A DNA stretch of 64,000 bases from Escherichia phage Lw1: sequence record KC801932; one strand, written 5' to 3'. The notes under the pieces were generated by a model that saw nothing but the letters and a program-made list of their open reading frames with translations, was not told where the DNA came from and ran no database searches. Position 1 is the first letter of the stretch; each line of letters starts with the position of its first letter. Shown here piece after piece: positions 9,922-45,468 of the stretch. Both the position numbers and the translations under genes were made by a program.

Positions 9922-10916
9922 TTGTAGTACCCCACAACGTGATCGCGATAAACGCGTTCGATAAAGTCGTTCCAGAACTCGCGATCAACCTCTTTCGGAT
10001 AATTAGAGACTGCTGCAAGGCGTTCGACTTCACCCATGATTTCTTCCAGCTTTTCCTGGACAAAAGTGAAAGGTTTCGTTCCGGCTTTAACTTCTTTTAA
10101 AAGCTGGCTCTCTTCCAGAGGATATACGATATCACCATGTTTGTAAATGCTGATAAGCTGTAAGCCTCCGCGCAATGCGTGAGAAAGTGCTTTCCAGTCG
10201 ATCCCGTTGTTGGCTTCTGCCTGTCTTGCTCGTTCACCATATTCGTCCCAGAGTTTATACACTGACTTTTTCATTTCAGCTACGGTGATCGTAGACTGGA
10301 ATTTGCGCCCCAGCACTTCATAGAAGTCCTGACAACCGGATTTCAGGGTTTTGTCTGTAGTGAATCGACAGAACTCATTGGTCGGGAATGTGTGAGAGAC
10401 TTCACCAACTTTGATGTGATGTGTTGCGTCACCCAGATTAGACGGCATACGAACAATGCGGCTATTTGGTGTATCCTGCAACACATCGTATACTTCACGC
10501 AGTGCAGCCAGGCGAGAACCTTTAACGCCATACTTCGCCGCTTGCTTACGAACATAACCAAACAGGCCAGTTAGTTCCGTAGTGTAGAAACGTGAACGGT
10601 TAGCGCGGATATACTGCCAGATTTCGGAGTTAGCGATCATCTTACTATCATCAGCATGAAGCATATCGAGCGCTACGGTATCACCATCACACGCAAGGCT
10701 AATGAACTTAGGCAGACTATACAACTGACGGTCGATGTCGTCTACGGTGTTCTTAGAGCTTTTATCGCCCGTGCTCGTGTCGATAGTCTTCGGGGCTTTA
10801 CCCAGTAAGATATCGCGTGGATGCGGGAGAAAGATCCCTTTATAATCTTTGTCGCTTGTCGGGGTGTTCAGTCCATACAGGTGAGAACCGAACACAGTTT
10901 CCATTACAATTTTCAT
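9918..10916 (-). CDS. Pol-beta superfamily nucleotidyltransferase (332 aa)
   Basis: N-terminal GS-x9-[DE]h[DE] signature FGSHLYGLNTPTSDKDYKGIF with third acidic residue about 60 aa downstream (ALDMLHADD); helical C-terminal half. Confidence 0.55.
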   Translation of the reverse strand: MKIVMETVFGSHLYGLNTPTSDKDYKGIFLPHPRDILLGKAPKTIDTSTGDKSSKNTVDDIDRQLYSLPKFISLACDGDTVALDMLHADDSKMIANSEIWQYIRANRSRFYTTELTGLFGYVRKQAAKYGVKGSRLAALREVYDVLQDTPNSRIVRMPSNLGDATHHIKVGEVSHTFPTNEFCRFTTDKTLKSGCQDFYEVLGRKFQSTITVAEMKKSVYKLWDEYGERARQAEANNGIDWKALSHALRGGLQLISIYKHGDIVYPLEESQLLKEVKAGTKPFTFVQEKLEEIMGEVERLAAVSNYPKEVDREFWNDFIERVYRDHVVGYYK

Positions 10917-22204: not shown

Positions 22205-22600
22205 TTACGCAAGTTCAATATGCGGCGCGTCGATGAACTTAGTTTCAATAGGAAGACGCGGATCATTCTTCCAGTTGATACCGAAACGCAGTTTCACGCC
22301 CAGTTCATCACCAGCTTTTTTCATTGCGTCCAGGACAGGCAACCACACTTTCGGGTTTTTCTGCCAACCTTCCGGCAGTACACTAGGATACAGATCCACA
22401 GCATCGCCAGTGATGTGCTTTGATGCCATTGTCTGAGATACACCCTGGCGCACGTATTCGCGCTGTTGCTCTACGGTACGCAGACCTTCACGTACACCGA
22501 AATCAACGGTTGAGAGTTCAAGAGCACGGTTTACAACCTTAACCAGTTCAGGCTTAACACCTTTCAGGTTGTTCAGGCTTTTCTGACTAAATTTAAACAT
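22205..22600 (-). CDS. L-alanyl-D-glutamate peptidase (peptidase M15), T5-type endolysin
   Basis: 131 aa; collinear with recalled T5 endolysin (KPEL.KV..RALELS..DF....G.RT...Q, SKHITGDA.D, GVKLRFG, HIEL). Confidence 0.75.
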   Translation of the reverse strand: MFKFSQKSLNNLKGVKPELVKVVNRALELSTVDFGVREGLRTVEQQREYVRQGVSQTMASKHITGDAVDLYPSVLPEGWQKNPKVWLPVLDAMKKAGDELGVKLRFGINWKNDPRLPIETKFIDAPHIELA

Positions 22601-23476: not shown

Positions 23477-23740
23477 TTAAAGTTCACAGCAACGGCACAC
23501 ACCGTAATTGCTGAAAGGTTCTTCGCCGCTCAAATAAGCCCAGAAGTCGCAAGCCTGTTCAGCGGTTTCGAAGATTGCAGCCTCGTAGAAACCACGTTCT
23601 TCATTACCTGCTTCGTTGATATAAACCGGAGTCCAGAGGCTCGGTTTGAAGCAGTCAGAAACAACTACCCAACCATCTTTCGCTTTCATTGCTTCTTTAT
23701 TCGCTTCAACCATTTCCAGAATTTCGTTCAGTAAGCTCAT
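23477..23740 (-). CDS. hypothetical protein (87 aa)
   Basis: ORF. Confidence 0.45.
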   Translation of the reverse strand: MSLLNEILEMVEANKEAMKAKDGWVVVSDCFKPSLWTPVYINEAGNEERGFYEAAIFETAEQACDFWAYLSGEEPFSNYGVCRCCEL

Positions 23741-34626: not shown

Positions 34627-35148
34627 TCACGAACTCTCGCCGCGATGTTCGATGTGCTCCGTGATATCCTCAACAGTCTTATCAAGGTCCAGAGATTCAG
34701 CATCTTCCTTGATAATAGTCAAATCTACAGGCAGTGTCAACAGTCTTTTCACTCCGCTGATATCTTCGATACGAGAATCATACGCAAGGGTAACATGCGG
34801 TTTGTAGTTGTCAAAATCGTAAGTCGCTCCGGCATCCATCGCATCATTGAAACGGCTATGCAGATAATCAGACTCCAGAACACCGACGATAGTGTTACCG
34901 TATTTTGTGTCCCACTTCTCTACGTCAACCAGTCGGGCAGGTTCAGAGATACCAGAGGCAGGGAACAAATCAACCGTCTTACGGCTATACACAATCGTTG
35001 TATGAAGTTTTTCAGCAGACACCGGATTCTCTACACCCAGAAGTTTTTGCACTTGTGCAAGCGCTTCACAGGAAGCCTGATCGAACTTCGCACACATATA
35101 GATCCCCGAATCAACTACGGGTTTCGCAACTTCAATAAAACTTTTCAT
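34627..35148 (-). CDS. acb1: 2H phosphoesterase, Acb1-like anti-CBASS nuclease (T4 gene 57B position)
   Basis: two H-x-T-x motifs (LHTTIVYS and PHVTLAYD) about 70 aa apart; immediately downstream of 57A as 57B is in T4. Confidence 0.7.
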   Translation of the reverse strand: MKSFIEVAKPVVDSGIYMCAKFDQASCEALAQVQKLLGVENPVSAEKLHTTIVYSRKTVDLFPASGISEPARLVDVEKWDTKYGNTIVGVLESDYLHSRFNDAMDAGATYDFDNYKPHVTLAYDSRIEDISGVKRLLTLPVDLTIIKEDAESLDLDKTVEDITEHIEHRGESS

Positions 35149-36661: not shown

Positions 36662-36695
36662 TAATGATCTCCATTTTGTAGATATTTATGTAGAC

Positions 36696-36860
36696 CGTGA
36701 GCGAAGCGAACACACGAACGAAGTGAGTGTTTTTAACTCAACTACATAATTATATATTTATATTTTATATATAGAGAAAAATGTAGTTTTTGGTATGGTT
36801 TTTAACCAACTGTAAACTATCCGTCTTCGCTTCGCTTGACGGAACTCGCTTCGCTCGTGA
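36696..36860. repeat. composite inverted-repeat element: GAGCGAAGCGA / TCGCTTCGCTC arms flanking an AT-rich core with nested CTACAT..ATGTAG palindrome
   Basis: left arm 36699-36709, right arms 36827-36836 and 36846-36856; alternating TA tract 36750-36775; TATAAATA on minus strand at 36755-36762. Confidence 0.6.
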
Positions 36861-36931
36861 TCTTGAAAAACTATTTGACCCTTTCAATAAATAGGTATAT
36901 CATACCTATACTTTCAAAAGAGATTGAAAAC

Positions 36932-37717
36932 ATGAAATCATTCAAAGAACTACTGTCTGAATCTGTTCAGACCAAAAAATTTGCTAAAACTGTTGATCTG
37001 GTTGACCGTGGTAATGCTTCAAAAGGTCAGATCGGTTTCCTGCACTTTGCACACGGTGCTGATTACGATGTGTATGCGCCGGACTCTCACGATCTCGCCT
37101 ACTTCGGTAAAGGTGTTGTTCGCCTGAAAGGTAAAACCACTGGTAAAACTCAGGCTGCATATGTTGACTGGGCGAAAGGTACGGTTTCTTTCTATAGCGG
37201 CGATCCGGCAGATGACCTGAAATTCGACAAGCCAGCGAAATTCAAAGGCGCTTCCCTGTACAAAGAAGCCGAAGAAAATCTGGATCTGTATAATCAGTTA
37301 GCGGAAGACTTCGAAATTGATGTACCGATGGATGAAGCACTGGTGAAAGGTAAGGTGTACAAGCTCCCAAGCAACGATATGCGCTTGCTGTATACCGGAC
37401 GTACCAAAAACAAGCCTACAGGTGAATACGCTGTGTTTACGGTTGTAGATGCCTCCGGTAAGCCTCGTCTGGTATCGGGTAAACGATTTACCCAGGAATA
37501 CAAAGGCGATATGCTGTCTAAACTGGTTCTCGCTGAATCGGAAGATCTGAACGAGGCCGCTAAAGGCATTCGCGAAAAAGTTATTGCGGTGTTGGTGAAG
37601 CGCGGGTTTAACGAAAAAGATGCAGAAAAGATGGTTGATAAAAACCTAAAAGATGCGATGAAAGTTCGCCCTGGTGCAACTCCAGGAAAACTAGCGGAAA
37701 TCGTGAGCACCTTGTAA
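36932..37717 (+). CDS. candidate internal head protein with capsid targeting sequence
   Basis: N-terminus MKSFKELLSE matches the T4 IP CTS pattern MKTYQEFIAE with an L-x-E protease site; E. coli-optimal codon usage; AATAAATA upstream; plus-strand insert in minus-strand module. Confidence 0.5.
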   Translation: MKSFKELLSESVQTKKFAKTVDLVDRGNASKGQIGFLHFAHGADYDVYAPDSHDLAYFGKGVVRLKGKTTGKTQAAYVDWAKGTVSFYSGDPADDLKFDKPAKFKGASLYKEAEENLDLYNQLAEDFEIDVPMDEALVKGKVYKLPSNDMRLLYTGRTKNKPTGEYAVFTVVDASGKPRLVSGKRFTQEYKGDMLSKLVLAESEDLNEAAKGIREKVIAVLVKRGFNEKDAEKMVDKNLKDAMKVRPGATPGKLAEIVSTL

Positions 37718-37721
37718 AAAT

Positions 37722-37753
37722 AAAGCCCCTTCCTTTCGGTTGGGGCTTTTTTT
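37722..37753 (+). terminator. hairpin + T7 terminator, same sequence as 443-476
   Basis: identical 30-nt sequence. Confidence 0.7.
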
Positions 37754-38606
37754 AATATCGGTTCCAAACTTTTTTCGCGCTGTATGGTTTTCCTTTCGAC
37801 TGGAAAGCCTGTGTAGGCAACCAAACTGCTTTCGCCCAGTCTTTTGGGGCTATCTCTGCAAGAGGTGATCGCAGGTGCGCAGGTAAGTATGCTTTGATCA
37901 TTTGATCTGCACCGCGCATCCCTTTCACGTTGTTCCAGTTGATTTTCAATCTGGTTTTGTTTGAAAGGCGATCTGTTGAACCATAACCACGTTTCAACAG
38001 TTCTTCTAAAAACTCTTGACGGGCTTTAGGTGGCGCATAGTGCAAGTTCAAACCGTACAGAACAACGTTACCCGCTTTAGAACGTCCTGAACCCAGGAAG
38101 ATGATTAGCGGGAACCGATCCCAGTATGGTAAGGTGTCTTTATATTTCGCGTCATACACGAACGTATACAGGCGACCTGTTGCTGGTTTCGCTACCCTGT
38201 GCGTTTTGATGCTGGTTTTGATGAAGTCACCAAACCAATCGGTTGAATCCTTTTGACGTTTCGCAGCAGAAACACCAACTGTAATTTTCCGTAAACTATT
38301 TCGGAAGTCGTTGATGATGTCAACTGTATGTTTTTTGCGATAGTCATTGCGTTTTCGTCGGGCTTCGGTTTCTGCTGTACGTCGCGAGATTTCATCATCA
38401 ATCTGCTGTTTATAGCGGTGCATAGACTTTGTGAACGTTGCGTATGCAATCCCGTTTTCGTCCGCGAATTTTTTGGCTGTCATGCCTTTTAATTTTGCGC
38501 GTCTGAATTTAACACCCAGTTCAACCCATTCACCAAGTTTTCGCTTCGGTGGCGGTTTCGGCTTATCTTCTTCTGCGATGATCTCAAACTCAAATATAAA
38601 ACTCAT
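37752..38606 (-). CDS. 2: DNA end protector protein gp2
   Basis: 284 aa basic protein between genes 4 and 3; size and synteny with T4 gene 2. Confidence 0.65.
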   Translation of the reverse strand: MSFIFEFEIIAEEDKPKPPPKRKLGEWVELGVKFRRAKLKGMTAKKFADENGIAYATFTKSMHRYKQQIDDEISRRTAETEARRKRNDYRKKHTVDIINDFRNSLRKITVGVSAAKRQKDSTDWFGDFIKTSIKTHRVAKPATGRLYTFVYDAKYKDTLPYWDRFPLIIFLGSGRSKAGNVVLYGLNLHYAPPKARQEFLEELLKRGYGSTDRLSNKTRLKINWNNVKGMRGADQMIKAYLPAHLRSPLAEIAPKDWAKAVWLPTQAFQSKGKPYSAKKVWNRY

Positions 38607-38627
38607 AATTCCCTCCGTTTAGGGTAT

Positions 38628-39095
38628 TTATTGCCCTTTCCATCCAAATACACGTTTCAACGTGTCTTCTGTGATGATCTTAAACTCCCAGCCCTTTTGT
38701 TTTGCTGCTGCATTAGCGGCTTTCCATTTGTCAATGTTTACTGCATAAGTATACAGCGCATCAACAAATTTCTTTTTGTTGTGAACGTTGTTATTCGCTG
38801 GTTTCGGTGGTGGCAATGTTTCTTTCATCGGTTTGACTTCCCATAGGTAGGTCACTCCGTTATCCATTTCAACATAAAAATCCATGAAGTAACGCCGTCT
38901 TTTACCGTCTGCGTTGCTGAAATAGGGGATAACAACCTCTTCACTGTTCCAGCGCTTTACATGCGGGTTTCGATCAAGCCAGTTCATAATATATTTTTCC
39001 CAGCTTGAACGATACGTTATCTTTCGGGGATCGCCTTTATATTTTGTGATGTTCTGGGGCATAAAAGACCCCTTGTACGTCTGTCTTCCAGCCAT
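38628..39095 (-). CDS. 4: head completion protein gp4
   Basis: 155 aa; MAG.QTYKGSF...KYKG...ITYRSSWE...EE..IPYFS recalled from T4 gp4; divergent from gene 53. Confidence 0.8.
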   Translation of the reverse strand: MAGRQTYKGSFMPQNITKYKGDPRKITYRSSWEKYIMNWLDRNPHVKRWNSEEVVIPYFSNADGKRRRYFMDFYVEMDNGVTYLWEVKPMKETLPPPKPANNNVHNKKKFVDALYTYAVNIDKWKAANAAAKQKGWEFKIITEDTLKRVFGWKGQ

Positions 39096-41458: not shown

Positions 41459-43531
41459 ATGATCATGGATTATGAAACGATAATTGATGGAATTATGCAA
41501 AATTTTCAGCATCCTTGTGATGCTGAAATACCTGCTGGATCGTACAGACGTATTATCTGGCAGGGACATACAGAAGACTACCCCGCTGTTGGGGTAGAAT
41601 GGGATACTGAAATCATTCCGATCGGGACGCATCTTTACACGCAATCCCCGTTCGGACAGAAAAGCGATCCGCTTCCGGTAGTCAACTCCCCAGGAACCGA
41701 TCCAGGAACTGGGGAAGCAACCGGGATTCTGGTAGAGAAGATTGGTTATTATTTCACCACACAACAGGAAATTGACGATTATATCACTTCTATTGGTGCA
41801 ACGAAACTAACTGGTAACGATTGGTACGGCGCGGATCTGACAAAAGCAAACCTGTTTAAAAATCCGGGGGAACTCGCAATGTATAAAGTCGAGAACTCTG
41901 GTGGTTATCTGATGACTTCTGGACCTCGCTGTGATCCACGTATCAGACAGGCTTATAACGTCGATACAGGGGCGTTTACGAGCATTGATTACGATTGGAA
42001 TGGTAATCGTATTGCTTACATGAAACATGACGACACAGGGGCGCACAATTGCAAATACGTAGGGATGATGGTCAACACCAACGCAGATACGAGCATTCCT
42101 CCGGTTCCTCCGGCTATGCCGTCTGTGTATGGTGCGTTACCGAGCGAAATTTCAATGATGCGATCTGGTTTGGGTTGTGTTCCGGCGACCGTTGGGTTTG
42201 CCTACACAAACATCAGTGATGCGATGCTCGAAGCATGGAACGAAACCAGGAAATCATTCAAACTTGTATTTGACATGCTTTCTGGGATCACTAAATCGGG
42301 TTCTGGTGGTATTTCTACAATGTATGATGGTTTGTGTATCGCGATGGAAGAAATTGCAGCAGGTGCTCTTGCTTTATCCCAGCAAGCATGGCAAGCCGCA
42401 ATGAAAGTGTTTCGTGATGTTATTTCATCAGCATTGAACATTGTAGGTGGTGCGTGGGACATGATAAAAAGTTTTCTGCCTACGGTGACCATTATGGGTG
42501 TGTCGATAAACATATACGATCTGATTTTTGGTGATAACTCTGTTCAGACACTAAAAGACGCATTTCAGGCAATCATTGATTCTGGTGTACAAACATATGA
42601 AGCAATCATAAACGAAATATATGCCACTATAGGCAGTGTTTACAATTATGCGGTAGAATATGTCAAGGCTGGCGCTAGAGACCTCGTAGACGCGTGTAGT
42701 GCGTTATTTGATTGGTGTATTACTATGTTCCAGAATGGTTGTGTGGCACTGGTTGATTTATACGGAAGGATCATGCAGATCTGGTCAATGCCTCCGATGG
42801 TTCCAAACCCGTTATGGGCTGCTGTTTTGGCTATCAGAAACATCCTTATGCAGATCAAACCTCTTGATATAATTTTAAGCGGTAACTTTCCTGGTTTTAC
42901 TGCGATGGACTTGTACCAATGGGCGCAAGAAAAAGTCAAGGAATTTATTGATCAATCATACGAACAGATACGCGGATATTATGAACAGGCTAAAAATCTT
43001 TACAACATGCTAACATCGCAGACTCAGGAAAGGGATGCAATAAAACGTAAATTTGACCAGTATCTTAACTGGATGTGGGGTGCTGTTACTGATGCTGCTA
43101 CCGCTGCATATCAGGCCGCGTTGGACGCTGCAAACGAAGCAATCGAACAAACAAAGGCAATGATAGATGGTGTTAAAGCACAGATAGCCGCTCTACAGGA
43201 CGCGTTGAAAGACACGTACAGTCTCGCAATGGAAGAGTTAAAGAAACTGCCTATCATGCAGCAGATTAACGAATTCTTAGGCTACTGTGGTATTGCTTTC
43301 GATGACTTACTGAAAACGTATGATAACGCGGTTACGGGCGCAAAATCCCTGTATAAAAACTTTGTGGACAGTTCCCGATCGTTCAAGGATACCTGCAAGG
43401 TGATATACAACCAGATATGTACGCTGGCACTAAGTAAGGTGACTCAATACGTGAATAAACTGTTGTCTCTAATCGGACTGATGATCAATTTCGCATCAAT
43501 CAATATTTGCGTTCCGATGATTCAACTATAA
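41459..43531 (+). CDS. large hypothetical protein (690 aa) between genes 5 and 6
   Basis: ATG 3 nt after gene 5 stop; predominantly helical with hydrophobic stretches and hydrophobic C-terminus; no T4 counterpart of this size recalled at this locus. Confidence 0.6.
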   Translation: MIMDYETIIDGIMQNFQHPCDAEIPAGSYRRIIWQGHTEDYPAVGVEWDTEIIPIGTHLYTQSPFGQKSDPLPVVNSPGTDPGTGEATGILVEKIGYYFTTQQEIDDYITSIGATKLTGNDWYGADLTKANLFKNPGELAMYKVENSGGYLMTSGPRCDPRIRQAYNVDTGAFTSIDYDWNGNRIAYMKHDDTGAHNCKYVGMMVNTNADTSIPPVPPAMPSVYGALPSEISMMRSGLGCVPATVGFAYTNISDAMLEAWNETRKSFKLVFDMLSGITKSGSGGISTMYDGLCIAMEEIAAGALALSQQAWQAAMKVFRDVISSALNIVGGAWDMIKSFLPTVTIMGVSINIYDLIFGDNSVQTLKDAFQAIIDSGVQTYEAIINEIYATIGSVYNYAVEYVKAGARDLVDACSALFDWCITMFQNGCVALVDLYGRIMQIWSMPPMVPNPLWAAVLAIRNILMQIKPLDIILSGNFPGFTAMDLYQWAQEKVKEFIDQSYEQIRGYYEQAKNLYNMLTSQTQERDAIKRKFDQYLNWMWGAVTDAATAAYQAALDAANEAIEQTKAMIDGVKAQIAALQDALKDTYSLAMEELKKLPIMQQINEFLGYCGIAFDDLLKTYDNAVTGAKSLYKNFVDSSRSFKDTCKVIYNQICTLALSKVTQYVNKLLSLIGLMINFASINICVPMIQL

Positions 43532-43534
43532 ATA
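43527..43534 (+). promoter_or_regulatory. T4-type late promoter TATAAATA upstream of gene 6
   Basis: exact TATAAATA 20 nt upstream of the gene 6 ATG. Confidence 0.6.
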
Positions 43535-43554
43535 CCCGATAAAGAGGGGTAATA

Positions 43555-45468
43555 ATGGCTACCGTAAAGAAACAAATTAATCAGATCCCCGATATTTTCG
43601 TCGGGGCTACTTTTGATGAAATCAAATCAGATTTAATTAACTGGCTTCGTGGTCAGGAAGAATTTAAGGATTACGATTTCGCTGGCTCTCGTATGAACGT
43701 ACTGGTTGACCTGCTTTCGTATACTACACTGTACATTCAGCAAATGAGTAACACCGCACTATTCGAATCATTCATTCGAACTGCGGCGCTTCGTAGTTCT
43801 GTTGTACAAAAGGCTCAGGATCTGGGATATATGCCGGACTCTCGCACCGCTGCAAATACCTCGATTCTAATTACTGCAAAGAACCCGCTGAACCCTACGT
43901 CAATTCGTATTCCACGAGGGACGAAGTTTATCGGTACTGTAAAAGAAACAAACAGCTTCCCGTTTGTCGTATCCGATGACGTGGTGATCGTGCGTGACAA
44001 AGACAACAACTATGTTTCTATGTTAAACATTGTCCAGGGGCGTTTAGTTCGTACTGAGGTAATCTACGATGGTTCTACTATCCTGATTCGCGATCCGAAT
44101 ATAGACCGTAACCAGGTGCGTGTGTCTATCAACGGGGCGCAATGGGATGACTGGACAAACGAAAGTATCGTAAACGCAACGGGCGCAAGTACCGTGTTTT
44201 ATATGCGGGAAACCGTTGACGGACACACTGAGGTTTACTTTGGTGAAGGTGAAACCAGTCAACAGGTGGCAGGTGGTGCTCTTACCGCTGACTACATCGG
44301 GGGCTTGAAACCTGCTAACGGTTCTGTCGTTGTTATTGAATATATTTCAACCAATGGCGAAGAAGCAAACGGTGCGGAAAACTTTGTTTACGTGGATACG
44401 TTGACAAATATCAGCATTACAAGTATTGTTGAGAACCCGACCAACTCTCAGGACTACGTAGGTGCTGATGGTGGCGGTGAACCGGAAGACATTGAGCGTA
44501 TTCGTGAACTTGCTCCGATCATGCGTGAAACACAACGTCGTTGTGTTACTGCGTCGGATTATGAATCGTTCCTGTCTCACAGATTCGGTTCGGTGATCCA
44601 AGCTGTACAGTGCTTTACTGACAGTGAAAAACCTGGATATGCGTTTATCGCGGTTAAACCGAAATCAGGGTTGCGCTTAACCTCTGTGCAGAAAGAGGAT
44701 ATGCAAAACTATCTGGCGAAGTATAACCTTGCGACGATCACGCCGTCTATTCTCGACCCTAACTATCTGTATATTGTACAAAACATCAAAGTTACGTATG
44801 ATATCAGTAAATTGATTGAGTCAGAAGAATGGCTTCGTGGTCAGGTAATCAACGAAATCGACAAATACTATACTGATAACGTTGAAATTTTCAACAAATC
44901 ATTCAGTAAGTCCAAGATGTTGACCTATGTTGATAACGCGGACGTGTCGATCATCGGTTCTTCTGCAACGATTAACATGTTGCGTGAACTCGATAACTAT
45001 TACAGTGCTCCGATGTCTGGTATTCATTTCTTAAACCAGGTCGCATCACGATCCATTATATCGAACGGATTCAAGTATACAAATGCTGATGACGATTCAT
45101 ATGATGTGCGTTATGCGTCTACTGATATGGACACTACGACCGGACTTGCTAAAATCGTAATAGGGCCATTTAAAGATGGTGATATCTCAATCACTCCGTA
45201 TGCTGGGGATGATTTCGATAAATACCCTGGGGTGACGGACAGAACGAAATACTATGAGGTCGGTTATGTTGAACATTACAACGACTTCATTAGCTTCGAT
45301 CTGGGTGTTTTAAACGTCCCATCAGAACGCTTTAGCGCTGCTTATATCGAACTGACGGCTAAACCATTAGAGGAAACTATCTTTACCCGTGATGGTTCTC
45401 TGATTGTGTTTGAAAACGATCTGCGTCCTCAATATACCACGTTGACGATGAACCCGATCAGCCAATAA
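43555..45468 (+). CDS. 6: baseplate wedge subunit gp6
   Basis: IP.IFVG.TF.EIK..LI.WL.GQ.EF.DYDF.GSR.NVL.DLL.Y.TLYIQQ recalled from T4 gp6. Confidence 0.85.
   Translation: MATVKKQINQIPDIFVGATFDEIKSDLINWLRGQEEFKDYDFAGSRMNVLVDLLSYTTLYIQQMSNTALFESFIRTAALRSSVVQKAQDLGYMPDSRTAANTSILITAKNPLNPTSIRIPRGTKFIGTVKETNSFPFVVSDDVVIVRDKDNNYVSMLNIVQGRLVRTEVIYDGSTILIRDPNIDRNQVRVSINGAQWDDWTNESIVNATGASTVFYMRETVDGHTEVYFGEGETSQQVAGGALTADYIGGLKPANGSVVVIEYISTNGEEANGAENFVYVDTLTNISITSIVENPTNSQDYVGADGGGEPEDIERIRELAPIMRETQRRCVTASDYESFLSHRFGSVIQAVQCFTDSEKPGYAFIAVKPKSGLRLTSVQKEDMQNYLAKYNLATITPSILDPNYLYIVQNIKVTYDISKLIESEEWLRGQVINEIDKYYTDNVEIFNKSFSKSKMLTYVDNADVSIIGSSATINMLRELDNYYSAPMSGIHFLNQVASRSIISNGFKYTNADDDSYDVRYASTDMDTTTGLAKIVIGPFKDGDISITPYAGDDFDKYPGVTDRTKYYEVGYVEHYNDFISFDLGVLNVPSERFSAAYIELTAKPLEETIFTRDGSLIVFENDLRPQYTTLTMNPISQ

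What the first reader, a model, noticed from the sequence alone, without database searches (positions are those of the whole stretch)
36932..37717. Candidate packaged internal protein: T4-like capsid targeting sequence plus host-optimised codon usage
The product begins MKSFKELLSE, matching position-by-position the T4 internal-protein capsid targeting sequence MKTYQEFIAE as I recall it, including a Leu-x-Glu prohead protease site after residue 10. The gene is the only plus-strand ORF inside the 4-2-3-1-57A module, is flanked by an elaborate inverted-repeat/AT-rich region and a strong terminator, and uses markedly E. coli-optimal codons (CTG, CGT, GGT, CCG, AAA), consistent with very high expression. 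T4 internal proteins are ejected with the DNA and include the anti-restriction factor IPI*; this protein shows no sequence similarity to them outside the leader.
Basis: partly seen in the sequence, partly recalled or inferred. Interest (0 to 1): 0.6.

Follow-up and report, generated by a model that had tools for sequence, protein, structure and literature searches.

The report
Candidate packaged internal head protein
An uncharacterised gene of an RB16-like T4-type phage carries the short N-terminal signal that T4 uses to load proteins into its capsid and inject them with the DNA, so it is probably a new injected phage protein, though nobody has yet looked for it in virions.

Summary
The ORF is real (36932-37717, +, 261 aa) and equals RB16p185, annotated only as a hypothetical protein. 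It is the founding member of phrog_7322.

Its leader MKSFKELLSE|S matches the T4 IPII/IPIII leader MKTYQEFIAE|A, the IPI leader MKTFKEF and the gp24 propeptide MAKINELLRE|S, all checked on T4 sequence. F4, K5 and E10 are invariant across 17 homologues. These include two of the four positions shown experimentally to govern targeting (4, 7) and cleavage (8, 10) in IPIII. The prohead protease gp21 and the gp23 maturation site are conserved in RB16.

CAI is 0.48, rank 22 of 245 ORFs, equal to scaffold gp22 and well above neighbours gp2/3/4. The promoter region conserves both a late-type TAAATA core and a sigma70-type promoter.

New here: conserved [LI]xE|[AS] sites sit in the interdomain linkers, just before interchangeable C-terminal modules. 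Cutting at E208 would free a 53-aa domain with a stand-alone 53-aa early-region paralogue.

Caveats: no virion proteomics exists for this clade, and similar leaders occur on UvsW.1 and a NAPRTase-like ORF. Any anti-restriction role is untested.

Verdict: probable new member of the T4 internal-protein class, possibly a protease-processed modular carrier. Confidence about 0.55.

The parts
36932..37717 (+). CDS of 261 aa plus stop. Equals RB16p185 and is a full-length member of phrog_7322.
36932..36961 (+). Codons 1-10, MKSFKELLSE: the CTS-like propeptide. Predicted gp21 cut is after E10, giving a mature N-terminus SVQTKK.
   Evidence: Determinant positions are taken from PMC9026906.
36989..37312 (+). 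Conserved beta-rich N-domain, about residues 20-127, pLDDT about 85. It holds most of the invariant residues (H38, H41, D44, D51, H53, D54, YFGK, KFK). No known fold match.
37313..37528 (+). Middle beta domain, about residues 128-199. It is present in most but not all homologues.
37529..37564 (+). Interdomain linker, residues 200-211 (LAE|SEDLNE|AAKG), of which 203-211 have low pLDDT. It holds two conserved [LI]xE|[AS] sites, at E202 and E208.
37556..37714 (+). C-terminal 53-aa three-helix module, residues 209-261 (phrog_9411). It is replaced by unrelated modules in some homologues and is missing in RB43. It has a stand-alone 53-aa paralogue, RB16p016.
36875..36903 (+). Sigma70-type promoter TTGACC-N17-TATCAT (10 of 12 matches). 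Both hexamers are conserved in five lineages.
   Evidence: KP27 annotators marked a similar site.
36886..36893 (+). Late-promoter-like AATAAATA. The TAAATA core is invariant in five lineages and is a perfect TATAAATA in two of them. The same variant lies 19 nt upstream of late gene 2.
36918..36923 (+). Shine-Dalgarno-like AAGAGA, 8 nt before the ATG.
37718..37753 (.). Bidirectional intrinsic terminator shared with the converging gene 2.
   Evidence: (I12). Annotated on both strands in KP15 and KP27.
36685..36870 (.). Inverted repeat with GAGCGAAGCGA arms around an AT-rich core. The core holds the gene-3 late promoter (TATAAATA, 36755-36762, minus strand). This is context; its function is unknown.

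Best explanation
RB16p185 is a capsid-targeted internal head protein of the T4 type.

Proposed mechanism:
1. It is made in large amounts, late and probably also early.
2. Its first 10 residues bind the scaffolding core of the prohead, as the IPIII capsid targeting sequence (CTS) does.
3. The gp21 prohead protease removes the leader after E10.
4. gp21 probably also cuts the conserved L-A-E202|S and L-N-E208|A sites in the disordered linker. This would separate a conserved roughly 21-22 kDa beta-rich body from a 53-residue basic helical module.
5. The pieces stay with the packaged DNA and enter the host with it.

Status of each step:
- Shown here: the leader and its family-wide conservation; the conserved protease and its gp23 site; the linker sites; the modular C-termini; the expression signals; the codon bias.
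- Inferred: core binding, cleavage, retention in the head, ejection.
- Unknown: the biochemical activity. My guess is host takeover or counter-defence immediately on entry. The C-terminal module would be a pre-loaded copy of an early-gene product, in the way packaged Alt relates to the early ModA/ModB in T4.
For: 1. Leader match to the real T4 IPII/III, IPI and gp24 propeptides. A T4-only BLOSUM score gives 0.04 expected among 265 N-termini.
2. F4, K5 and E10 are invariant and [LI]xE|[SGV] is present at the leader end in all 17 homologues, while residues 11-30 vary. A stricter per-sequence scan finds the same site in 19 of 21 sequences. Positions 4 and 7 (targeting) and 8 and 10 (processing) are the functional positions of the IPIII CTS (PMC9026906).
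3. RB16 gp21 is 62% identical to T4 gp21. The gp23 site FL(T/A)E|AEI and the gp22 N-terminus MLKEQL(I/L)AE|A are conserved.
4. CAI 0.482 is about equal to gp22 (0.487) and near gp18 (0.519). It is far above gp2, gp3 and gp4 (0.28-0.32).
5. A late-type TAAATA core is invariant upstream in five lineages. AATAAATA also precedes late gene 2.
6. [LI]xE|[ASGV] motifs recur in the interdomain linkers. In P0009 and P0010 they occur both between the conserved body and the first C-terminal module and between the two tandem modules. E202 and E208 lie at the start of and inside the low-pLDDT segment 203-211.
7. T4 Alt gives a precedent for gp21 removing a C-terminal piece of about 60 residues (PMC5694885).
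8. The fragment 209-261 has the same length (53 aa) as the stand-alone paralogue RB16p016 and 52% identity to it.
9. The protein is Lys-rich: 13% K, 96th percentile, mature pI 8.9.
10. RB16 has no homologues of the mature IPI/II/III proteins, so the internal-protein role is otherwise unfilled.
11. A second RB16 ORF, p227, shares the first 17 nt and the leader MKSFKDF, has CAATAAATA upstream and has CAI 0.53.
Against: - There is no direct evidence of presence in virions. No proteomics for this clade is in the held literature.
- Leader-like N-termini also occur on UvsW.1 (conserved in T4 and RB16) and on a NAPRTase-like ORF, neither known to be packaged. N-termini in general are biased toward MK and AT-rich codons, so the internal-window null overstates significance.
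- A conserved sigma70-type promoter suggests early expression, which is not the classic internal-protein pattern.
- The gene sits in the gp3/gp2/gp4 head-tail joining cluster with fixed synteny, and its body is 82-95% conserved between genera. The hypervariable T4 ip loci are not like this.
- KP15-type homologues are annotated with three extra N-terminal residues (MTHLKKFKEFLTE).
- In p185 itself the N-domain/middle-domain junction reads M-D-E|A, not [LI]xE.
Confidence: 0.55

Rival explanations
1. An abundant cytoplasmic, non-packaged phage protein, for example a host-takeover or anti-defence factor expressed from its own promoter-terminator cassette. Its N-terminus would resemble the CTS only because T4-type genes favour MK(S/T)F.E-type, AT-rich, unstructured translation starts.
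For: UvsW.1 and a NAPRTase-like ORF score as high or higher on the T4-leader score. A sigma70-type promoter is conserved. The gene forms a self-contained cassette with its own terminator. The C-terminal domain has a small stand-alone paralogue in the early region.
Against: This does not explain the invariance of F4, K5 and E10 next to a variable segment. It does not explain the invariant TAAATA inside the sigma70 spacer. It does not explain [LI]xE|[AS] recurring in the interdomain linkers. The NAPRTase-like ORF lacks the [LI]xE site at positions 8-10, and UvsW.1 has low CAI (0.32).
Confidence: 0.25
2. A clade-specific prohead core or scaffold accessory protein, like gp67 or gp68. It would be targeted to the core and cut by gp21 at several sites, but would act in head assembly and be largely expelled rather than delivered as an effector.
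For: There are multiple conserved gp21-type sites. The gene has fixed synteny in a morphogenesis cluster and a conserved body. CAI is similar to gp22. gp67 also scores on the looser leader motif used.
Against: Core proteins are shared by all T4-type phages, whereas this family has only 12 clusters at 50% identity. It has folded beta domains rather than acidic coiled segments. Its C-terminal modules are swapped and are absent in RB43.
Confidence: 0.13
3. A head-tail joining or DNA-end factor working with gp2, gp3 and gp4. The location would reflect the function and the leader would be irrelevant.
For: The gene always lies between gp3 and gp2.
Against: It is on the opposite strand with its own promoter and terminator. 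T4 and most T4-type phages have no counterpart at this position. Codon bias is far above that of the low-copy neighbours. No fold or family link to neck or tail proteins was found.
Confidence: 0.05

Closest known systems
T4 internal proteins IPIII and IPII (leader MKTYQEFIAE|A) and IPI (leader MKTFKEF...ITE|A)
   Same: A 10-residue N-terminal leader with aromatic residue 4, hydrophobic residues 7 and 8 and Glu10 followed by a small residue. Lys-rich, highly expressed, non-core gene. The mature parts are unrelated to one another, as is normal for this class (PMC3012670, PMC9026906).
   Different: No homology of the mature region. Larger (27.7 kDa mature) and multi-domain. Located between genes 3 and 2 rather than near e or 57B. 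The body is conserved across genera rather than hypervariable. Packaging is not demonstrated.
T4 Alt (packaged ADP-ribosyltransferase)
   Same: A large CTS-bearing cargo cut by gp21 at both ends: ITE-6 and LTE-619, the latter removing 63 C-terminal residues (PMC5694885). It has early-expressed paralogues (ModA and ModB; established knowledge). This parallels the proposed cut at E208 and the early-region paralogue RB16p016.
   Different: No sequence or fold similarity. No enzymatic motif was recognised in p185.
T4 gp24 propeptide (MAKINELLRE|S)
   Same: The same ELLxE|S context at residues 6-11.
   Different: gp24 is a capsid shell protein. RB16 gp24 itself has a different N-terminus.
Protease-processed ejection and inner-body proteins of giant phages (phiKZ, SPN3US), and the 'polyvalent protein' idea of multi-domain packaged effectors (my own knowledge, not checked here)
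   Same: A shared N-terminal propeptide among paralogues. Cleavage after Glu in a short motif, with multiple sites per substrate (PMC5694885).
   Different: Different phage lineage and cleavage motif (A/S-x-E). Those proteins were found by virion mass spectrometry; this one was not.
RuvA domain III / UBA-like three-helix bundles
   Different: Not significant by sequence profile against the PDB. Such small bundles are very common. This is a lead only.

Membership tests
T4-type internal (CTS-targeted, ejected) head proteins | N-terminal propeptide of 10-19 residues resembling MKT(Y/F)(Q/K)EF | tested here: met
   MKSFKELLSE compared with leaders read from T4. The T4-only BLOSUM score ties for rank 3 of 265 N-termini, with 0.04 expected.
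T4-type internal (CTS-targeted, ejected) head proteins | Targeting determinants at residues 4 and 7 (aromatic or hydrophobic) | tested here: met
   F4 is invariant. Residue 7 is L, F, M or Y in the homologues. Determinant positions are from PMC9026906.
T4-type internal (CTS-targeted, ejected) head proteins | Processing determinants: Leu/Ile at residue 8 and Glu (not Asp) at residue 10, followed by a small residue | tested here: met
   L8-S9-E10|S11. The site is present at the leader end in 17 of 17 aligned homologues, and in 19 of 21 sequences by a stricter per-sequence scan.
T4-type internal (CTS-targeted, ejected) head proteins | Cognate gp21-type prohead protease with the same specificity in the same genome | tested here: met
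   RB16 gp21 is 62% identical to T4 gp21. The gp23 FLxE|AEI site is conserved. gp21 lies outside the window, in the 99.8%-identical RB16 genome.
T4-type internal (CTS-targeted, ejected) head proteins | Synthesis during head assembly (late transcription) | tested here: inconclusive
   A conserved late-type TAAATA core overlaps a conserved sigma70-type promoter. There are no transcript data.
T4-type internal (CTS-targeted, ejected) head proteins | Physically present in mature heads in processed form | not testable with these tools
   No virion proteomics for Pseudotevenvirus or Slopekvirus was found.
T4-type internal (CTS-targeted, ejected) head proteins | Ejected into the host with the DNA | not testable with these tools
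   Needs experiment.
T4-type internal (CTS-targeted, ejected) head proteins | Homology of the mature part to IPI, IPII or IPIII (not defining, because the T4 proteins are unrelated to each other) | tested here: not met
   tblastn of T4 IPI/II/III against the RB16-type genome gives only leader-level matches, all with E > 0.2. PHROG families are different.
phrog_7322 (uncharacterised phage protein family) | Full-length profile match | tested here: met
   E 4.3e-171, residues 1-261 against profile positions 1-263.
phrog_9411 / C-terminal 53-aa helical module | Profile match of residues 213-258 | tested here: met
   E 6e-18. The stand-alone RB16p016 matches at E 3.4e-35.
RuvA domain III-like fold | Significant structural and sequence similarity | tested here: inconclusive

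The most novel reading that the evidence does not exclude
p185 would be a modular 'carrier polyprotein'. A conserved CTS-plus-beta-domain body takes interchangeable C-terminal effector modules into the prohead, and gp21 frees them at [LI]xE|[AS] junctions. The phage would then inject ready-made copies of proteins that it also encodes as stand-alone early genes (module 1 equals RB16p016). This would be a general way for pseudo-T-even phages to deliver early functions before transcription begins, and to swap those functions by recombination at the linker.
Probability: 0.3. Interest if true: 0.65.

Novelty: new member of a known kind. Interest (0 to 1): 0.45.

Why it matters
T4 internal proteins are the classic case of phage proteins injected with the DNA, and IPI* blocks the GmrSD restriction system. 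Outside the close T-even phages their repertoire is essentially unmapped.

This family is present in about 177 sequenced Pseudotevenvirus and Slopekvirus genomes, many of them therapeutic candidates against Klebsiella, Enterobacter and Cronobacter, and is annotated only as hypothetical.

If it is packaged, three things follow:
- It identifies what these phages deliver at the moment of infection.
- It offers a native leader for loading foreign cargo into their capsids.
- The junction-site pattern suggests how cargo is exchanged between phages.

If virion mass spectrometry does not find it, the result still warns that CTS-like N-termini alone over-predict packaging.

Tried and rejected
- Pfam, NCBIfam and PADLOC gave nothing above threshold for p185.
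- A profile search of 1.84 billion cluster representatives found only 12 clusters, all of the same family or its modules. No distant relatives turned up to suggest a function.
- Profiles against PDB sequences gave nothing for the whole protein or for the C-terminal module.
- Rfam gave nothing for the intergenic region.
- Literature searches for virion proteomics of RB16, RB43, KP15, KP27, Slopekvirus or Pseudotevenvirus found none. The KP15/KP27 paper has no proteome section. The ValerieMcCarty mass-spectrometry study concerns Jiaodavirus. The vB_EcRAM-01 paper has SDS-PAGE only.
- Accession and locus-tag searches found no paper.
- The upstream TTG start at 36836 (293 aa) was rejected. It has no RBS, and the homologues and conserved promoter elements lie inside it.
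- A perfect late promoter for this gene was rejected. The TATAAATA at 36755-36762 is on the minus strand and serves gene 3.
- My first motif scan used residue classes that included the target's own residues. I replaced it with a T4-only score.
- The idea that the conserved His/Asp residues of the N-domain form a catalytic site is not supported. They are not kept in the divergent member P0020 or in the Aeromonas avDM6 homologue.

Full report
**Identity of the window.** The 1.2 kb around the finding is 99.8% identical to Escherichia phage RB16 (HM134276, 100695-101896) and to a Citrobacter phage record. It is about 90% identical to many Enterobacter, Cronobacter and Klebsiella phages. The ORF is RB16p185, 'conserved hypothetical phage protein'. 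The window is not RB16 itself. It lacks the Seg-like endonuclease between genes 2 and 4 and the HNH endonuclease before gene 6. Where I needed genes outside the window (gp21, gp23, p016, p227) I used the RB16 record and say so.

**The observation.** The ORF 36932-37717 (+) encodes 261 aa starting MKSFKELLSESVQTKK. I read the T4 leaders from NC_000866 instead of trusting memory:
- IPII and IPIII begin MKTYQEFIAE|A.
- IPI begins MKTFKEFTST...ITE|A.
- gp24 begins MAKINELLRE|S.

The match is therefore real: 4 identical and 6 conservative positions against IPII/III, 6 of 10 identical against IPI, and the same ELLxE|S context as gp24.

Scoring residues 2-10 with BLOSUM62 against the two T4 leaders only, 9 of 58,749 internal windows of the RB16-type proteome reach the ORF's score. 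That gives 0.04 expected among 265 N-termini.

The gene is the only plus-strand gene in the 57A-1-3 / 2-4 block. Upstream lies a significant inverted repeat around an AT-rich core. Downstream lies a bidirectional terminator.

Codon adaptation is high but not extreme. CAI is 0.482 against a genome mean of 0.348, rank 22 of 245. That equals scaffold gp22 (0.487), is below gp18 (0.519), Hoc (0.554) and gp23 (0.682), and is far above gp2, gp3 and gp4 (0.28-0.32). CTG and GGT carry the bias. CGT, CCG and AAA do not.

**Family and anatomy.** The protein is a full-length member of phrog_7322 (unknown function). Its last 50 residues also match phrog_9411.

The family is small. There are 16 clusters at 90% identity and 12 at 50% identity among 1.84 billion representatives. 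About 177 phage genomes carry it, from Pseudotevenvirus, Slopekvirus, Yersinia phage JC221 and Pantoea phage Phynn. A distant copy of the N-domain sits inside a larger Aeromonas phage protein.

Synteny gp3(-) / gene(+) / gp2(-) holds in all five lineages examined.

The alignment shows four things:
- an invariant leader (F4, K5, E10);
- a variable stretch, residues 11-30;
- a strongly conserved beta-rich N-domain, then a middle beta domain;
- at least three unrelated C-terminal modules.

Some homologues stop after the N-domain (P0019, 133 aa). RB43 stops after the middle domain (202 aa). P0009 and P0010 carry two modules in tandem.

**Evidence bearing on capsid targeting.** Mutational work on IPIII places targeting at residues 4 and 7 and processing at residues 8 and 10. 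Asp10 blocks cleavage but not targeting (PMC9026906). In this family residue 4 is always Phe, residue 7 is always hydrophobic, residue 8 is Leu or Ile, and residue 10 is always Glu followed by S, G or V.

The enzyme expected to act on it is present. RB16 gp21 is 62% identical to T4 gp21. The gp23 maturation site (FLTE|AEIGGDH in T4, FLAE|AEIAGDH in RB16) and the gp22 N-terminus are conserved.

The RB16-type genome has no homologue of mature IPI, IPII or IPIII.

The protein is Lys-rich (13%, 96th percentile) with mature pI 8.9. This fits the Lys-DNA contacts described for T4 internal proteins (PMC3012670).

[LI]xE|[ASGV] motifs recur in the interdomain linkers. In the window protein, L-A-E202|S and L-N-E208|A lie at the start of and inside the disordered linker 203-211. 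Each is conserved in 13 of the 14-15 homologues that have those columns.

In homologues with other modules, the same kind of site precedes the module: LVE|A, INE|A, LSE|A, LDE|A. In the two-module proteins it also lies between the modules: LNE|S and LDE|A in P0009, INE|S and IDE|A in P0010.

A cut at E208 would release residues 209-261. That fragment is 53 aa, the same length as RB16p016 and 52% identical to it. RB16p016 is a stand-alone ORF in the motB.2-dexA cluster of small genes.

T4 Alt gives a precedent for gp21 removing a C-terminal piece of about 60 residues from a packaged protein (PMC5694885). Alt also has early-expressed paralogues (established knowledge).

I therefore propose that the protein is processed into separate domains inside the prohead. 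This is inference; no cleavage has been observed.

**Expression signals.** The perfect TATAAATA in the intergenic region is on the minus strand and serves gene 3.

For the target gene, five lineages conserve TTGAYC-N17-TAYNAT, a sigma70-type promoter. Inside its spacer they also conserve an invariant TAAATA. This reads as a perfect TATAAATA in JC221 and in a metagenomic relative, and as AATAAATA in the window. AATAAATA occurs only three times in the window, and another copy lies 19 nt upstream of late gene 2.

I read this as dual early and late expression. It is untested.

**Caveats.**
- The leader is not unique to candidate head proteins. UvsW.1 (MKSFTEFVNE|A in RB16, MLLEFKQFLYE|A in T4) and a NAPRTase-like ORF (MKTFNELNS...) score as high or higher. 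UvsW.1 has low CAI (0.32), and the NAPRTase-like ORF lacks the [LI]xE site.
- A fourth ORF, RB16p227, is a zeta-toxin-like P-loop protein. It shares the first 17 nt with p185, has the leader MKSFKDFVSLDE|A, has CAATAAATA upstream and has CAI 0.53. It keeps a similar leader in Aeromonas and Vibrio T4-type phages. It looks like a second candidate cargo.
- No virion proteomics for this clade could be found.
- The conserved body and fixed position differ from the hypervariable T4 ip loci.

**Comparison with what is known, and verdict.** The concept is established. T-even internal proteins are a diverse set that share only a CTS (PMC3012670, PMC9026906). This ORF meets every sequence-level criterion of that class. 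It cannot be tested for the two physical criteria, presence in heads and ejection.

It is not homologous to any characterised internal protein. I file it as a probable new member of a known kind (confidence 0.55). It may have a new twist: a carrier body with protease-released, exchangeable C-terminal modules (probability 0.3).

The rivals are:
- a non-packaged abundant protein with a coincidental leader (0.25);
- a degraded prohead-core accessory protein (0.13);
- a head-tail joining factor (0.05).

The anti-restriction suggestion remains pure speculation. Interest is 0.45.

Noticed in passing
outside the window: RB16 HM134276 144043-144876 (L005 36044-36877, minus strand): RB16p227 is 277 aa with a zeta-toxin-like P-loop (PF06414, E 2.6e-7). 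It has the leader MKSFKDFVSLDE|A, and its first 17 nt are identical to the target gene. CAATAAATA lies upstream and CAI is 0.53. Homologues in Aeromonas and Vibrio T4-type phages keep an xF.(E/D/S)F...[LI]xE leader. It looks like a second candidate packaged protein.
   Followed up: partly
outside the window: RB16 138955-139185 (L005 30956-31186, minus strand); T4 L009 4678-6441: UvsW.1 carries a CTS-like N-terminus with an xxE|A site in both RB16 (MKSFTEFVNE|A) and T4 (MLLEFKQFLYE|A). Either UvsW.1 is also head-targeted, or the motif over-predicts. In this T4 record it is fused to the end of uvsW.
   Followed up: partly
window 36685-36870: An inverted repeat with GAGCGAAGCGA arms has one copy on the + strand and two on the - strand. 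It brackets the AT-rich core that holds the gene-3 late promoter. The DNA fold z-score is -3.8. The arm sequences are conserved in JC221, Phynn and a metagenomic relative but not in KP15. There is no Rfam match. Function unknown.
   Followed up: partly
window 36875-36903: A sigma70-type promoter and a late-type TAAATA core overlap, and both are conserved across five lineages. This suggests one site serves two transcription programmes.
   Followed up: partly
outside the window: RB16 10482-10643 (L007, minus strand): RB16p016 (53 aa, phrog_9411) is a stand-alone copy of the target's C-terminal module. It lies in the motB.2-dexA cluster of small genes. RB43 has a 77-aa relative (BFVD entry K0NXN6).
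   Followed up: partly
window 23477-23740 (minus strand): An 87-aa ORF, MSLLNEILEMVEANKEAMK..., has the highest CAI in the window (0.59). It belongs to phrog_7335 (unknown function) and has no Pfam hit. It lies near an endolysin-like ORF at 22205-22600. It may be another very highly expressed small protein.
   Followed up: no
window 38606-38628 and 43531-43555, compared with RB16 L001 8005-8694 and L005 320-997: The window lacks the Seg-like GIY-YIG endonuclease between genes 2 and 4 and the Mob-like HNH endonuclease before gene 6. RB16 carries both. The window therefore comes from an RB16-like phage free of these homing endonucleases.
   Followed up: no
L003 1492-1500 (KP15) and L004 (KP27): Slopekvirus homologues are annotated from an ATG three codons upstream (MTHLKKFKEFLTE|G). 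The codon aligned with the family's start is TTG. The true start, and so the leader length, is uncertain in that genus.
   Followed up: no
outside the window: RB16 150521-151954 (L005 42522-43955): The putative nicotinate phosphoribosyltransferase begins MKTFNELNS. It scores as high as the target on the T4-leader score but has no [LI]xE at residues 8-10.
   Followed up: no
L010, L011, L012 (relatives); window 34627-35148: The gene annotated 57B in RB16 carries the Pfam Acb1 domain (PF23474) in the JC221, Phynn and metagenomic relatives. This domain marks an anti-CBASS phosphodiesterase. The gene lies four genes from the target.
   Followed up: no
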